64,000 bases of DNA, from NCBI GenBank assembly GCA_951406725.2, contig OX597819.1:4836001-4900000 (forward strand), in the 5' to 3' direction. The stretch comes from Octopus vulgaris. Lineage: Eukaryota. Of this stretch, positions 21,101 through 27,100 are shown piece by piece; the stretch's first letter is position 1, and every line of letters starts with the position of its first letter. A program made the position numbers.

Positions 21101-24100
21101 TAAAACGCAACTGATCGCGTGAATAACTCTTTAGCTTTCTTTCTCTCTTGGCTGATGCAATAACCGGGCAGCCATGTTAAATTTTCAAAATTTCGTTTTC
21201 GTCGACAGGAAATAATTTGTGGAAATTTTTTTTGTTTTTCATATAATTTAATAGTAGAGTTCATATTAGTTACTTTAAAATGCAAAGTCTAGTATTTTTT
21301 GAAAATGAGAAATTTTAGTTATTTTTGATTTTTAGTGTGGAACTATTTTCTGTACCTGATTAAAAATCAATGCGCCGACTATAAATAGCGCGACTTCCGT
21401 CGACCGCGTCACTCACAAAATATGAAAGGAATACAAATGCTTCGTGATTAAATCTTCTCCGCTCAATAATTTCGACAATCGATACTTTTGTTTCATGCAA
21501 AGTCTACTTTCTCTAATTGGATTTATATTTATCACAGAAATGGATGTATTATGTTCCGCACTATGCTCAGATCTTGATTTTTCGTCTACTTTGTTCGCCG
21601 ATGACTTTAAACATTTCAGCTCAACTGAAAATGACGATTCTCAATATTTCATGACAAAAGTCAATTACACAGATGAATACTGGAATAAACTCGATAGATA
21701 TTGGCTCCAATATTCCTTTCCACCCTGTCACAAACTCCACAAAAACACTTCTGATGTTACATTCGTTGACCATCACCAAAACTGCATTCAAAACAATTTC
21801 TGAAAAAACACATCTTAATCGCATTTGATTATTGGATTTAATTGGATTTCGCATCGCAATGGCACCACCTGCTTTAATAAATCCATTTAGTTCTTACGAA
21901 GCATGTCATGAGATGGCGGGTCCTGAAGTGTGTCAGCTGAGGACGACGACGGCACCCAGGGAAGGAGACTTCACTTATTGCGGCTCCCCAGAATCGTCCA
22001 AAGTCGATTCCCTGATAGACTTTATTGCCAAGTTAAGTGTCGTGCATTTACAAAGACATATGCTGTTTATGCAGCTCAACTGCGGCGACTGCACCCACAG
22101 CAACATAAGCCGTATATTGAACACAAAAAACATTGAGATGAACCGACAGCATGCGAAGTCCGCGGACGGTGGTCCCATTGCCAACCCCGTCCTGTTCACC
22201 CCTGTAAACGATGATCTTAATTGCCCCCCATTCGACTTAGCTATTGAATACGATAGTCTTATTAGTGAATCTAACTCGTTAGAAAACCCTTCAGACGAAG
22301 AAGTATTCCCCCAGGAAAGCGAGTACGACTGGTCATTCAGTCCGAGCAACAAAAGTCCAATGAACTCCACTAATTTAGACTCTTTTTCTGATCTGCACAG
22401 CTCTGTTCATGATGGCCAGGACAGCGATGATGATGGACATTTCTCTTTTGATGATGCGAGCAGTGAGGAAAACTGGGATTTTAGTTCAGACCCAATTTGT
22501 AACGGTTTACCCTGTACCAAAGACGTTCCATTTTGGAAAACCGTTTTCCAGCTGGTGGACAGCGATGAGGATGATGATGATGAGTGTGATAGTGATGATT
22601 GTGTGAGTGATGATGACTGCGATAGAAACTACGATGATGATATCTTGTTCTCTGATACTCCTTGCTTTTCTTTCAATAAACTGTTTGAAAATACTCAAAA
22701 TACAAAAACTGAAACTACAGACTCCGTTATTCCGAATTCCGTCGGAAAAGCCAACCACAGATGGAACCAAGTCTATCCGGACACCGACACACAACATCAA
22801 AAAGCTTCTAAGGTAGAATATTTTTATTACTTCCTTAAAAATTTCACGCCAACATATATTGTAATTCCTTTTCTGTAAACTATTGAATGCCATATGTTGT
22901 ATATTTGAATATTATACGAATTAATCTAATTTTTATTTCTCTTTATATTAGCAGCTGGGTTCTTTCAATCAGCATTTCTTACATTTGCCCTGTAATTTCA
23001 AACTGTTTTTCACCTAAATTGCTTTAATTGCAGTTGTTCATTCACTTTTGGTGGGAGAAAATCATGTGAAACGTTTGTTCAACCTATTTTAAGCTGATCT
23101 AATAACAGTTCACAAAGCGGAATATAATTCCGTGACCCTCAAACGGATGCAGCATTTTGCATGTCCTCCTCTTCGACTGACTACGATTTTTTTGTCTTTT
23201 TTTTATCAGATTAAGGGTCGAGCTGGGGATTTTGGGGTTCCCTCCTATCTCTCCCTCATTAGGATTTCTATTAATACTAATTAACATTAATGTTAGCTAA
23301 TCAATGGAAATAACTCTTTTCAAAGTACATAGTCCGAGCTCAAAGACCGGGGGGTTTTTTTTGTTTTTTTTTAGAATTCCAATTTTTCGTGTTGACAGCA
23401 AAAAAAACCCGAAGAAATTATCGAAAAGTAAAAATGGCGCCGGTGAATTTCTTCGACATTTTTTAATTTTGGGGGGAAAGTAGGGCGCGCACTTGACACG
23501 TTCAAAAGATATTCCTGCGCAGTTTAACCGCAGCACACACTGTCTAAATGAATTCCTCCGCAGCCACCATCTCTTACACTTTCAATATATTAATCAAGCA
23601 CTCCCTCTATTTAAATTATTTGTCTTCTTTTGTGTAAACATTGAAAGAAAGGCTGCTTTTTTTTTAATATATAAAAACTAGCAGTATCGCCCGGCGTTGC
23701 TCGGGTTTGTAAGGGAAATAACTATATAAGCATTTTTAGAGTTATAGCCAAAAAATGCATTAAAAATGGGAAAAAAATTATGGTAAATTTTTTTTTAACC
23801 GTTGACTCATCGTAGACATTTTTAGAGAGTTACTTCCGGTACTTGTCAATTGTCGTGGTCCCGGTTTTGCACACGCGAATGCGCGCGCGCGCGCGCCAGA
23901 CGTAGGTACTCGATACTCGAGATCCTACGAGGTGACATGCGCAGTGCAGAATTCGCGCGTGCGCGTTAAACCCCCCCCCCCTAAAAAAAAAGGTGTTGGA
24001 TTTCACTAAAAATATATGTGTGTGTGTGTGTGTGTGTATATATAACATTTTCAATTTTACACAAAAAAATTACATAGTCGCTTTCCTCGCGGATTTACAG

Positions 24101-27100
24101 AGAAATGAATTAATTACTATTTTACAGAATAAAATTAATGAATTAATTATATAAATTAAATAATTCTTGAAAATTAATTAATATTAATAATATTTTTTGA
24201 ACAAAGTAAATAATTTATAAAACTTGGTTAATAATTTTTTTTACACAAACGCGAACGTATATAATTTGTGAAACTTTTTTTTTTACAGACGTATATAATT
24301 TGGTAAACTTAATGAATTAATTTCTTCTCATCATCATCATCGTTTAACGTCCGTTCTCCATGCCAGCATGGGTTGGACGGTTCGACCGGGGATCTGGGAA
24401 GCCAGAAGGCTGCACCAGACTCCAGTCTTATCTGGCAATGTTTCTACAGCTGGATGCCCTTCCTAACGCCAACCACTCCGAGAGTGTAGTGGGTGCTTTT
24501 TACATGCCACCCGCACAGGTGCCAGGCGAGGCTGGCAACGGCCACGGTCGGATTGGTGCCAGTCGAGGCGGCTCTGGCATCGGCCACGATTCGGATAGTG
24601 CTTTTTACGTACCACCAGTCCAGGGGTCCTGGCATTTGCCGGGTGCCACACTTGCCCCAACATGTCTTCGCAAGCAAAGGGGGTTGGCATGGGTGCCTGT
24701 CGTGGGATGAGGTTCGATATCAACTTCGCTTGCCTCAACAGGTCTTTGTGTATAAATGTATAAATTTTTCGCACTAAATTCTTTCCGTAGAATTTATAAA
24801 AAAACGCGCAAAATTATTCCGTAGACTTTATCAAATTAAAAAACGCAAAATTAATATATTTTTTGAAATTGCAAATTATTTAGAATATAAAACAAATTAA
24901 GTTAAATTTTTAAAATAAATGTCATATACTTATACTCTGTAAGGTGCTGTGTTCACACTTCAATTTACTATTTTCTAGAAATGTTGCTTTTCTAATTGAA
25001 ACAATTTTTCTCAATCTCCATTTAAAAGTCCATAATGCCTCTTGAGCCATATCAAAATGAACAACTTTGAATTACCCGGTGGTGGTGGTGTGAGGTTCTA
25101 ATTTTTTTTCTGATCTCTCTTTGCCCCCTCTTTATCTCAGTTGTTCATTCAGCTAATATTTAGAAAAATTTTCGCGCCCAATTTTTGTTGTCGCGGGAAA
25201 AGATGAACGATTTAAAATAAATATATCTTAATTGTAGTGTGAGAAAGTATATATATTCTGATGACAAAATATATTATCTTTCAAAAACATCCCAAATTTA
25301 TAGACTATATCGTGTAGGTTTAAGAAATATATATATATATATATATAGATATAGATATATATATATATACATATATAGTAGAGAATGAAACATCTTTCAT
25401 CTGTCTCCCCACCACACCTCCATCTAGGGGGGCAAAGAGAGATCTGAAAAAAAATTAGAACCTCACACCACCACCACCACCGGGTAATTCAAAGTTGTTC
25501 ATTTTGATATGGCTCAAGAGGCATTATGGACTTTTAAATGGAGATTGAGAAAAATTGTTTCAATTAGAAAAGCAACATTTCTAGAAAATAGTAAATTGAA
25601 GTGTGAACACAGCACCTTACAGAGTATAAGTATATGACATTTATTTTTAAAATTTAACTTAATTTGTTTTATATTCTAAATAATTTGCAATTTCAAAAAA
25701 TATATTAATTTTGCGTTTTTTAATTTGATAAAGTCTACGGAATAATTTTTGCGCGTTTTTTTATAAATTCTACGGAAAGAATTTAGTGCGAAAAATTTAT
25801 ACATTTATACACAAAGACCTGTTGAGGCAAGCGAAGTTGATATCGAACCTCATCCCACGACAGGCACCCATGCCAACCCCCTTTGCTTGCGAAGACATGT
25901 TGGGGCAAGTGTGGCACCCGGCAAATGCCAGGACCCCTGGACTGGTGGTACGTAAAAAGCACTATCCGAATCGTGGCCGATGCCAGAGCCGCCTCGACTG
26001 GCACCAATCCGACCGTGGCCGTTGCCAGCCTCGCCTGGCACCTGTGCGGGTGGCATGTAAAAAGCACCCACTACACTCTCGGAGTGGTTGGCGTTAGGAA
26101 GGGCATCCAGCTGTAGAAACATTGCCAGATAAGACTGGAGTCTGGTGCAGCCTTCTGGCTTCCCAGATCCCCGGTCGAACCGTCCAACCCATGCTGGCAT
26201 GGAGAACGGACGTTAAACGATGATGATGATGAGAAGAAATTAATTCATTAAGTTTACCAAATTATATACGTCTGTAAAAAAAAAAAGTTTCACAAATTAT
26301 ATACGTTCGCGTTTGTGTAAAAAAAATTATTAACCAAGTTTTATAAATTATTTACTTTGTTCAAAAAATATTATTAATATTAATTAATTTTCAAGAATTA
26401 TTTAATTTATATAATTAATTCATTAATTTTATTCTGTAAAATAGTAATTAATTCATTTCTCTGTAAATCCGCGAGGAAAGCGACTATGTAATTTTTTTGT
26501 GTAAAATTGAAAATGTTATATATACACACACACACACACACACATATATTTTTAGTGAAATCCAACACCTTTTTTTTTAGGAGGGGGGTTTAACGCGCAC
26601 GCGCGAATTCTGCACTGCGCATGTCACCTCGTAGGATCTCGAGTATCGAGTACCTACGTCTGGCGCGCGCGCGCGCGCATTCGCGTGTGCAAAACCGGGA
26701 CCACGACAATTGACAAGTACCGTTACTTCCCTTATATAATAGCAAAAAAATGATGGTAAATTTTTTTTTAAATCGTAGACTCATCGTAGACGCGCGCTAA
26801 TACCCAGAAGGGCTTGATATGAATCACGACTATAAGATACCCGCTTTTGGTTACACTGCATCGCAAAATGTGGGAGTAGTTAGGAATCTAAATCGTAGGA
26901 GACAGACAGCACACAACCTCACTCTTATATATAAAGATAGCTTGAATACAATTTAGTTCCGGTTTATAGTATATTTCCCTCCTCTCTTTCATATCTATTT
27001 TTCTTCTCTATATTTTTTGTGCTTCTCATCTTGGAAACAGCATCAGTGCTGAAAATTTTCAAAAGTTCATTTGGAAATTTCAGCACATTAAAACTTAACA

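What the first reader, a model, noticed from the sequence alone, without database searches (positions are those of the whole stretch)
23838..26721. 2.9-kb foldback element forms a ~1.3-kb near-perfect hairpin in the PPP1R15 (GADD34-like) pre-mRNA
Seen: two ~1.29-kb arms in inverted orientation around a ~300-bp spacer. The few differences I found are mostly in homopolymer or simple-repeat runs, and an exact 9-bp TSD flanks the element. Known: 9-bp TSDs with long TIRs point to the Mutator/Foldback group; long dsRNA is the substrate of ADARs (very active in coleoids) and of dsRNA sensors; PPP1R15 reverses eIF2-alpha phosphorylation. Inference: every unspliced transcript of this stress gene would carry a very long dsRNA stem that could be hyper-edited, diced or alter splicing.
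Basis: partly seen in the sequence, partly recalled or inferred. Interest (0 to 1): 0.7.

Follow-up and report, generated by a model that had tools for sequence, protein, structure and literature searches.

The report
Foldback transposon in octopus PPP1R15 intron
A 2.9-kb non-coding "foldback" jumping gene with two nearly identical 1.3-kb inverted arms sits inside the only coding intron of an octopus stress-recovery gene; it is a real and probably young insertion, of an ordinary kind, with no shown effect on the gene.

Summary
Arms 23838-25128 and 25428-26721 are inverted copies (1286 of 1296 aligned columns identical) around a 299-nt spacer, flanked by an exact 9-nt duplication. Two uninterrupted paralogues of the host repeat elsewhere in the window carry that 9-mer once, exactly where the two flanks meet. 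So this is a true insertion, not an assembly palindrome.

The element has no detected coding capacity and no second copy in the window. It lies 1,025 nt into a 9,233-nt intron (22813-32045). The flanking exons match Octopus sinensis LOC115212865 at 96% and 99%. The last exon matches PPP1R15A, PPP1R15B and DP71L chains in the PDB.

The sense RNA is predicted to fold into a ~1.29-kb stem, MFE -2450 kcal/mol against -676 to -678 for shuffles.

Best reading: a non-autonomous long-TIR (foldback) DNA transposon, probably moved by a Mutator-like transposase. Its intronic hairpin is a likely ADAR substrate and is removed with the intron. Editing, dicing and splicing effects are untested. A link to PPP1R15 function is probably coincidence.

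It is a new member of a known kind, of modest interest.

The parts
23829..23837 (.). Left copy of the 9-nt target-site duplication GTTACTTCC
   Evidence: Read directly. The 9-mer occurs once in the paralogous empty sites.
23838..25128 (.). Left arm (long terminal inverted repeat), 1291 nt. It has a GC-rich outer ~150 nt with (GC)8, a C-run and (TG)10; an AT-rich stretch at about 24000-24300; a SINE-like segment at about 24328-24559 and beyond; and an AT-rich inner part.
   Evidence: The SINE-like segment matches copies at 9802-10031 (90%), 7084-7310 (88%) and 31302-31480 (82%).
25129..25427 (.). Non-palindromic spacer (the loop of the hairpin), 299 nt, with (AT)25 at 25327-25377. Positions 25203-25327 resemble 53229-53351 (83%).
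25428..26721 (.). Right arm, 1294 nt, the reverse complement of the left arm (1286 of 1296 aligned columns identical)
26722..26730 (.). Right copy of the 9-nt target-site duplication GTTACTTCC
23664..23837 (+). Left half of the host repeat copy that was split by the insertion
   Evidence: About 90% identical to 15403-15590 and to 20661-20477
26722..26939 (+). Right half of the split host repeat copy
   Evidence: 26722-26743 is 100% identical to 15582-15603 and to 20485-20464. 26744-26939 is 88-93% identical to 15625-15806 and 20443-20252.
21859..22812 (+). Large coding exon of the PPP1R15-family gene (318 codons from the ATG), acidic, ending in ...AAG directly before GT
   Evidence: 306 of 318 residues identical to residues 1-314 of O. 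sinensis LOC115212865 (P0002). Donor site read.
22813..32045 (+). Phase-0 intron of 9,233 nt (GT...AG) that contains the element. The element starts 1,025 nt after the donor and ends 5,324 nt before the acceptor.
   Evidence: The model is inferred from the orthologue's protein; no RNA data were seen.
32046..32267 (+). Last coding exon (73 codons plus stop): the PP1-binding and substrate-recruiting C-terminal domain
   Evidence: 72 of 73 residues identical to P0002 residues 315-387. PDB hits are PPP1R15A 7nzm_C (E=6.2e-6), DP71L 9nb9_B (0.0056), 4xpn_B and 4v0u_E. Pfam PP1c_bdg reaches only E=0.01, 16 bits, below the 26.1 cut-off.

Best explanation
This is a non-autonomous, long-TIR ('foldback') class II DNA transposon. 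A trans-acting DDE transposase that makes 9-nt staggered cuts pasted it into a pre-existing SINE-like repeat inside the single coding intron of an octopus PPP1R15 (GADD34/CReP-family) gene. The transposase was most likely Mutator-like, but that is inferred from TSD length and long TIRs only. The exact TSD and 99.2% arm identity suggest a young insertion, or arms kept alike by conversion. When the gene is transcribed, the right arm should snap back on the left arm as soon as it is made. That gives a ~1.29-kb almost perfect dsRNA stem with a 299-nt loop. This is a thermodynamic prediction, not an observation. Since octopus is reported to hyper-edit repeat dsRNA heavily, the stem is a likely ADAR substrate (inferred). 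The structure lies wholly within the intron and encloses no exon. The default expectation is therefore that it is spliced out with the lariat and is neutral or mildly deleterious for the gene. Its position in a gene of the eIF2-alpha pathway is incidental.
For: The arms, spacer and exact 9-nt TSD are read directly. Two paralogous empty sites show a precise insertion: in both uninterrupted copies of the host repeat (15403-15806 on +, 20252-20661 on -) the matches to the left and right flanks overlap by exactly 9 nt (15582-15590 and 20477-20485), and the 9-mer occurs once there (alignment A1). No coding capacity was found. 18 of the 23 ORFs of at least 40 aa that overlap the left arm and spacer were scanned against Pfam. 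None reached a cut-off; one chance-level hit was B3_4, E=0.087. The terminal 27-mer is found only at the two outer ends, so this is not a head-to-head pair of complete elements. Intron position rests, and gene family (weak). The predicted fold has MFE -2450.1 kcal/mol (sense) and -2459.1 (antisense), against -676 to -678 for 3 shuffles and -847 and -1115 for two other 2884-nt stretches of the same intron. 1286 of 1291 left-arm bases pair with the right arm, and the longest unbroken helix is 529 bp. From the literature: MULEs have long TIRs and 8-10 bp TSDs (PMC5225508 passages). Most foldback elements are placed in the Mutator superfamily, and Tetris was assigned there from its 8-10 bp TSDs (PMC4079207 passages). 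Octopus is one of the two species with the strongest hyper-editing signal, and palindromic DNA transposons in Xenopus are heavily edited (PMC5625713 passages).
Against: There is only one copy in the 64-kb window. No eukaryotic genome collection was available, so a multi-copy family and an autonomous partner are not shown. No Mutator-type transposase domain was found in the 83 of 103 window ORFs of at least 90 aa that were scanned. The arms lack the tandem sub-repeat arrays typical of Drosophila FB and Tetris arms; TRF found only microsatellites and one 34-nt unit in 2 copies. A 9-nt TSD is also compatible with other superfamilies; Merlin, 8-9 nt, is recalled and not checked. A protein-database search with a 121-aa arm ORF found nothing (8 candidates, none at E<=0.001), so no trace of further copies was obtained. 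No RNA data were seen, so transcription through the element, the fold in vivo, editing and neutrality are all inference.
Confidence: 0.8

Rival explanations
1. Assembly artefact: a palindromic chimeric long read, or a mis-join, created an inverted duplication that does not exist in the animal.
For: Near-perfect long palindromes are a known failure mode of long-read assemblies (general knowledge, not tested). 4 of the 7 arm differences are run-length indels of the kind sequencing errors produce.
Against: An artefactual palindrome would mirror its flanks. Here the flanks are two consecutive halves of one host repeat, joined by a direct 9-nt duplication that is single in two paralogous copies. 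The arms end in matching termini exactly at the TSD. A 299-nt unique spacer and 3 substitutions separate the arms.
Confidence: 0.04
2. The structure is the same, but it belongs to another superfamily (for example Merlin-like), or it is a lineage-specific long-TIR derivative whose arms grew by inverted duplication of one end that already carried a SINE.
For: No transposase is present. The arms lack tandem sub-repeats. Each arm carries the same SINE-like segment at the same place, so the arms were duplicated or homogenised after that segment was acquired. The cited literature notes that foldback structure can arise independently in different TE lineages (PMC4079207 passages).
Against: Long TIRs with 8-10 nt TSDs are the stated hallmark of MULEs (PMC5225508 passages). 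Long-TIR Galileo elements of the P superfamily have 7-nt TSDs (recalled), and hAT elements have 8-nt TSDs (recalled). Neither fits an exact 9.
Confidence: 0.25
3. Functional hairpin locus: the intronic stem is used by the cell. It could be a source of endogenous siRNAs (like Drosophila hpRNA genes) against the SINE family in the arms. It could also be an ADAR- or dsRNA-sensor-dependent brake on production of the eIF2-alpha phosphatase subunit.
For: The duplex is very long and nearly perfect. The arms contain a dispersed SINE-like sequence with at least 6 further copies in the window. The host gene belongs to the translational stress pathway.
Against: Conservation could not be tested, and the exact TSD with near-identical arms points to a recent, unselected insertion. 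The hairpin encloses no exon. The same intron tolerates an older, decayed palindromic element at 30427-31199 (88-91% arms). That suggests such insertions drift rather than being maintained. No paper linking PPP1R15 introns with inverted repeats in this sense was found; the search listing gave 4 papers, none on the point by title or abstract start.
Confidence: 0.06
4. An in-situ inverted duplication by replication template switching or hairpin-capped break repair, not a transposition.
For: Such events create long perfect palindromes with short spacers (general knowledge).
Against: They copy local sequence. Apart from the SINE-like segment, a 125-nt spacer piece and microsatellites, the arm sequence occurs nowhere else in the window. 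It interrupts a host repeat precisely, with a 9-nt duplication.
Confidence: 0.03

Closest known systems
Foldback (FB) elements of Drosophila melanogaster and Tetris of D. virilis
   Same: Very long inverted arms make up most of the element (here 2585 of 2884 nt), with a short non-coding middle domain. There is no transposase. The TSD is 9 nt (Tetris: 8-10 nt; PMC4079207 passages).
   Different: FB and Tetris arms are built from arrays of tandem sub-repeats. Here TRF finds only microsatellites and one 34-nt unit in 2 copies, and each arm carries a SINE-like segment instead. No sequence comparison with FB or Tetris was possible.
Non-autonomous Mutator-like elements (MULEs)
   Same: Long TIRs and an 8-10 nt TSD are the stated features (PMC5225508 passages). 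The foreign (SINE-like) DNA carried inside recalls Pack-MULE-type capture (recalled).
   Different: Arms of 1.29 kb are far longer than usual MULE TIRs (recalled: a few hundred nt). No MURA-type transposase was seen in the window.
Galileo (P superfamily) long-TIR elements of Drosophila
   Same: TIRs reach about 1.2 kb with a foldback-like structure (PMC4168063, search listing only; details recalled).
   Different: Galileo has a 7-nt TSD (recalled), against an exact 9 here.
Palindromic Harbinger repeats of Xenopus tropicalis and inverted repeat pairs as ADAR hyper-editing substrates
   Same: A single transposon copy folds on itself into tight dsRNA with no need for a neighbouring inverted copy (PMC5625713 passages).
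   Different: The Xenopus example is 221 nt, whereas this stem is about 1,290 bp. Editing was measured there and not here.
Drosophila hpRNA (endo-siRNA hairpin) loci
   Same: A long, near-perfect intramolecular RNA hairpin transcribed by Pol II (recalled).
   Different: hpRNA loci are conserved, stand-alone genes with defined targets. This is an apparently young TE insertion inside an intron, and no small-RNA evidence exists for it.

Membership tests
Foldback-type (long-TIR, non-autonomous) DNA transposon, structural class | Inverted arms make up most of the element, around a short middle domain | tested here: met
   Arms of 1291 and 1294 nt and a spacer of 299 nt in a 2884-nt element
Foldback-type (long-TIR, non-autonomous) DNA transposon, structural class | Target-site duplication that proves transposition | tested here: met
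   Exact 9-nt TSD, occurring once in two paralogous empty sites
Foldback-type (long-TIR, non-autonomous) DNA transposon, structural class | No transposase ORF | tested here: met
   The longest ORF is 121 aa. 18 of 23 ORFs of at least 40 aa in the left arm and spacer were scanned, with no Pfam family at cut-off.
Foldback-type (long-TIR, non-autonomous) DNA transposon, structural class | Multi-copy family sharing termini | not testable with these tools
   There is one copy in the window. No eukaryotic genome collection was available, and the protein-database proxy was empty.
Drosophila FB / Tetris family proper | Arms composed of arrays of tandem sub-repeats | tested here: not met
   TRF finds only (GC)8, (TG)10, AT-rich short repeats and a 34-nt unit in 2 copies
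Mutator / MULE superfamily | 8-10 (typically 9) nt TSD and long TIRs | tested here: met
   criterion from PMC5225508 passages
Mutator / MULE superfamily | Mobilised by a MURA-type DDE transposase that shares the TIRs | not testable with these tools
   None in the element. None among the 83 of 103 window ORFs of at least 90 aa that were scanned.
PPP1R15 (GADD34/CReP) family, host gene | C-terminal PP1-binding and substrate-recruiting domain similar to PPP1R15A/B | tested here: met
   The exon 32046-32264, searched within ORF 31980-32264, hits 7nzm_C at E=6.2e-6. 5 of the 6 PDB hits at E<=10 are PPP1R15A, PPP1R15B or DP71L. The profile of three cephalopod proteins gives the same four chains.
PPP1R15 (GADD34/CReP) family, host gene | RVxF-type PP1 docking motif | tested here: met
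   KVRF is present in the O. sinensis protein P0002 at residues 314-317. In the window the K is the last codon of exon 21859-22812 and VRF opens exon 32046. The exons were not joined by me.
PPP1R15 (GADD34/CReP) family, host gene | Pfam PP1c_bdg (PF10488) at gathering score | tested here: not met
   16 bits, E=0.01, against a cut-off of 26.1, and only the last ~40 profile positions match. P0002 as a whole matches no family.

The most novel reading that the evidence does not exclude
The hairpin is not inert. As a ~1.29-kb near-perfect intronic dsRNA that also contains Z-prone (GC)8 and (TG)10 duplex segments, it could act as a cis-acting dsRNA governor of the octopus eIF2-alpha phosphatase subunit. 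ADAR binding and hyper-editing, or dicing, of the nascent transcript would then set how much PPP1R15 mRNA is completed. It could also yield siRNAs against the SINE family embedded in the arms. Either way, dsRNA metabolism would be coupled to recovery from translational stress in an animal with exceptional ADAR activity.
Probability: 0.04. Interest if true: 0.7.

Novelty: new member of a known kind. Interest (0 to 1): 0.25.

Why it matters
If the reading is right, this is a clean, probably young example of a foldback-type DNA transposon in a cephalopod. I found no paper in the searched library that holds 'octopus', 'foldback' and 'transposable' together. A recent 9-nt-TSD insertion would point to a Mutator-like transposase that was recently active in octopus. 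It also offers a natural and unusually long single-locus test substrate for ADAR hyper-editing, dicing and intron processing in a species known for RNA editing. At the DNA level, a 1.3-kb inverted repeat with a 299-bp spacer is a potential fragile or recombinogenic site inside a single-copy stress gene. None of this makes it exceptional. Intronic self-pairing repeats are common in this window; a second palindromic element lies in the same intron.

Tried and rejected
1. Other copies of the element in the window. blastn and the terminal 27-mer with up to 3 mismatches found none beyond the two arms. Only a ~230-nt SINE-like segment, a 125-nt spacer piece and microsatellites recur.

2. A head-to-head dimer of two complete elements. 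Rejected, because there are no inner copies of the terminus.

3. Transposase remnants. Pfam scans of arm and spacer ORFs were negative.

4. A protein-database proxy for further copies. A 121-aa arm ORF that spans unique and SINE-like sequence gave 8 word-sharing candidates, none at E<=0.001. This is weak evidence either way.

5. Known RNA families. Rfam at E<=1 over 21000-33000 gave 9 matches, none reaching a gathering score. The two matches inside the element (mir-297-like, E=0.27) sit on the (TG)n run. ARAGORN found 0 tRNA genes in the window, so no tRNA-like head of the SINE was identified.

6. The alternative C-terminus of O. bimaculoides isoform X2 (P0003), which lacks the PP1-binding exon. 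tblastn found no counterpart in the window's intron or in the element.

7. Literature. 0 papers hold octopus, foldback and transposable together. The PPP1R15 + intron + 'inverted repeat' search listed 4 papers, none relevant by title or abstract start. The octopus + 'DNA transposons' + MULE search and the Octopus vulgaris repeat search were seen as listings only and were not read.

9. No supplementary files were consulted.

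
Full report
**Observation**

The inverted repeat is real and sits at the stated coordinates. The repeat finder returns five collinear inverted blocks of 153, 329, 539, 281 and 51 nt, at 97-100% complementarity. Together they cover 23837-25128 and 25428-26722.

I aligned the left arm (23838-25128, 1291 nt) to the reverse complement of the right arm (25428-26721, 1294 nt). The alignment has 1296 columns: 1286 identical, 3 mismatches and 7 gap columns in 4 indel events.
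- All four indels are run-length changes: a C-run, a T-run, an A-run and a GGT repeat.
- One mismatch borders the C-run.

The spacer (25129-25427, 299 nt) is not palindromic apart from an (AT)25 run. GTTACTTCC flanks the element exactly, at 23829-23837 and 26722-26730.

The window holds no N. The terminal 27-mer occurs only at the two termini with up to 3 mismatches, with none in 100 shuffles. Among the 89 inverted pairs of at least 100 nt within 5 kb in the window, this is by far the longest and most exact.

**Is it an insertion or an artefact?**

The element interrupts a copy of a ~400-nt dispersed repeat. Two uninterrupted paralogues of that repeat lie in the window, at 15403-15806 (+) and 20252-20661 (-).
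- In the first paralogue, the match to the left flank ends at 15590 and the match to the right flank starts at 15582.
- In the second, the corresponding positions are 20477 and 20485.
- So in both paralogues the flank matches overlap by exactly 9 nt.

The alignment shows the 9-mer once in each paralogue, at the point where the element sits in the interrupted copy (A1). These are paralogous empty sites.

Together with the 3 substitutions between the arms and the unique spacer, they argue strongly against both a palindromic assembly artefact and an in-situ inverted duplication.

**Anatomy**

Each arm has, from the outside inwards:
- a GC-rich outer ~150 nt with (GC)8, a C-run followed by an A-run, and (TG)10;
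- an AT-rich stretch of 15-20% GC;
- a GC-rich segment of up to 62% GC;
- an AT-rich inner part.

The GC-rich segment is a copy of a SINE-like dispersed repeat (24328-24559 and 26001-26232). Further copies lie at 9802-10031 (90%), 7084-7310 (88%), 31302-31480 (82%), 7975-8091, 18078-18208 and 38611-38775. ARAGORN finds no tRNA-like gene anywhere in the window.

Both arms carry this segment at the same place. The arms were therefore duplicated or homogenised after it was acquired.

The arms lack the tandem sub-repeat arrays of Drosophila FB and Tetris. The terminus has no inner copies, so the element is not two complete elements placed head to head.

No coding capacity was found.
- The longest ORF is 121 aa.
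- 18 of the 23 ORFs of at least 40 aa overlapping the left arm and spacer were scanned against Pfam. None reached a cut-off. One chance-level hit was B3_4, E=0.087.
- The five ORFs not scanned were short overlapping frames.
- The right-arm ORFs mirror those of the left arm and were not scanned separately.

**Gene context**

The search was done exon by exon.

The ORF segment 21859-22812 (318 aa) matches 'uncharacterized protein LOC115212865 [Octopus sinensis]' (P0002, 387 aa). The match covers residues 1-314, with 306 of 318 identical. Weaker matches are an O. bimaculoides protein (72%), an unnamed protein (57%) and an Argonauta hians protein (33%).

The segment 32046-32264 (73 aa) matches P0002 residues 315-387, with 72 of 73 identical.

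The first segment ends with AAG directly before GT (22813). The second begins directly after a pyrimidine tract and AG (32044-32045). This gives a phase-0 intron of 9,233 nt. The element starts 1,025 nt into it and takes up 31% of it.

The model rests on the orthologue's annotated protein and on splice consensus. No RNA evidence was seen.

The last exon is PPP1R15-like.
- PDB sequence hits are PPP1R15A (7nzm_C, E=6.2e-6; 4xpn_B; 7nxv_C), PPP1R15B (4v0u_E) and DP71L (9nb9_B, E=0.0056).
- That is 5 of the 6 hits at E<=10; the sixth is a designed repeat protein.
- A profile of three cephalopod proteins finds the same four chains.
- Pfam PP1c_bdg is only sub-threshold: 16 bits against a cut-off of 26.1.
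- The RVxF-type motif KVRF is visible in P0002 across the exon boundary.

The window evidently comes from an Octopus species close to O. sinensis.

**Predicted RNA behaviour**

ViennaRNA results:

| Sequence folded | MFE (kcal/mol) |
|---|---|
| 2884-nt sense RNA of the element | -2450.1 |
| Antisense RNA of the element | -2459.1 |
| Three mononucleotide shuffles | -676 to -678 |
| Two other 2884-nt stretches of the same intron | -847 and -1115 |

In the sense fold, 1286 of 1291 left-arm bases pair with the right arm. The longest unbroken helix is 529 bp.

This is a thermodynamic prediction for the naked RNA. It does not show the fold in vivo.

The arms flank no exon, so the hairpin only loops out intronic RNA. 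No back-splicing geometry is created, and any editing would be intronic.

**Mechanism and classification**

An exact 9-nt TSD with matching termini implies cut-and-paste integration by a DDE transposase that makes 9-nt staggered cuts.

Passages of PMC5225508 give 'long TIRs and 8-10 bp TSDs' as the features of MULEs. Passages of PMC4079207 state three things:
- the foldback form can evolve independently by loss of the transposase and elongation of the TIRs;
- Tetris was assigned to Mutator from its 8-10 bp TSDs.

The same inference applies here, with the same weakness. There is no transposase in the element. None appeared among the 83 of 103 window ORFs of at least 90 aa that I scanned; the other 20 were overlapping frames that I left out.

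I put about 0.55-0.6 on Mutator-like mobilisation, and about 0.25 on another superfamily or a lineage-specific derivative.

**Consequences**

Passages of PMC5625713 report three relevant things:
- hyper-editing targets dsRNA formed by repeats;
- Octopus bimaculoides and Xenopus tropicalis have the strongest signal;
- a self-pairing palindromic Harbinger repeat is heavily edited.

ADAR action on this stem is thus a reasonable expectation, but it is untested.

Nothing here supports an effect on splicing, dicing, or a functional tie to eIF2-alpha signalling. The same intron contains an older, decayed palindromic element at about 30427-31199. Its arm blocks are 88-91% complementary, and it appears to have an 8-nt flanking repeat. 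That suggests such insertions are tolerated and drift.

The simplest reading is a neutral or mildly deleterious young insertion. At the DNA level, a long inverted repeat with a short spacer could be recombinogenic (general knowledge, not tested).

**What stayed unchecked**
- Copy number, an autonomous partner, and presence or absence at the orthologous site in other octopus genomes.
- Read support for the assembly.
- All RNA-level claims.
- A protein-database proxy search with an arm ORF, which returned nothing.
- The literature: 0 papers hold octopus, foldback and transposable together, and nothing relevant appeared for PPP1R15 introns with inverted repeats (listing only).
- Supplementary files, none of which were consulted.

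**Verdict**

The gene context is confirmed. The functional speculation is unsupported and probably incidental. This is a new member of a known kind, with interest about 0.25.

Noticed in passing
window 30427-31199: A second, older palindromic element lies in the same intron. It is about 775 nt and almost entirely self-complementary; its arm blocks are 88-91% complementary and its centre is near 30820. ATCTCTGC appears on both sides, 2 nt out of register on the right, which hints at an 8-nt TSD. A sub-threshold Rfam miRNA-precursor match (MIR6274, 42 bits against 80) sits on its central hairpin at 30768-30871.
   Followed up: partly
window 15403-15806 (+) and 20252-20661 (-): Two copies of the ~400-nt host repeat lie in inverted orientation upstream of the coding exon. 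They are 94-96% complementary and about 4.4-4.8 kb apart. They also pair with the split copy in the intron (20280-20443 against 26745-26908, 95%). They served as paralogous empty sites. Whether they are transcribed with the gene is unknown.
   Followed up: partly
protein P0003 (O. bimaculoides LOC106868078 isoform X2), compared with window 22813-32045: The annotated O. bimaculoides isoform X2 (320 aa) replaces the PP1-binding C-terminal exon with a short unrelated tail. It would therefore lack the phosphatase-docking domain. No counterpart of that tail was found in the window by tblastn.
   Followed up: partly
window 37170-38621 (-): A long open frame of 484 aa has Vanin_C (E=3.5e-18) and CN_hydrolase (E=2.4e-8) domains. 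It looks like a vanin/biotinidase-like gene, apparently one large exon, on the opposite strand downstream of PPP1R15.
   Followed up: no
window 3265-3843 (+); 63119-63667 (-); 58120-58581 (-): Other fragments of mobile elements: DUF7047 plus an RVT_3 reverse-transcriptase-like frame; a Pif1 helicase 2B-domain frame (E=2.7e-15), possibly Helitron-related (recalled association); and a weak zf-BED frame (E=0.0067, below cut-off).
   Followed up: no
window 27137-27630: Just downstream of the element there is a perfect 36-nt inverted repeat (27137-27172 and 27595-27630). It encloses two direct 97-nt repeats that are 89% alike (27379-27475 and 27507-27603). This may be another small TIR element.
   Followed up: no
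window 39481-41810: Long AT-dinucleotide and related simple-repeat arrays give many overlapping inverted matches. They also match the (AT)25 run of the element's spacer.
   Followed up: no
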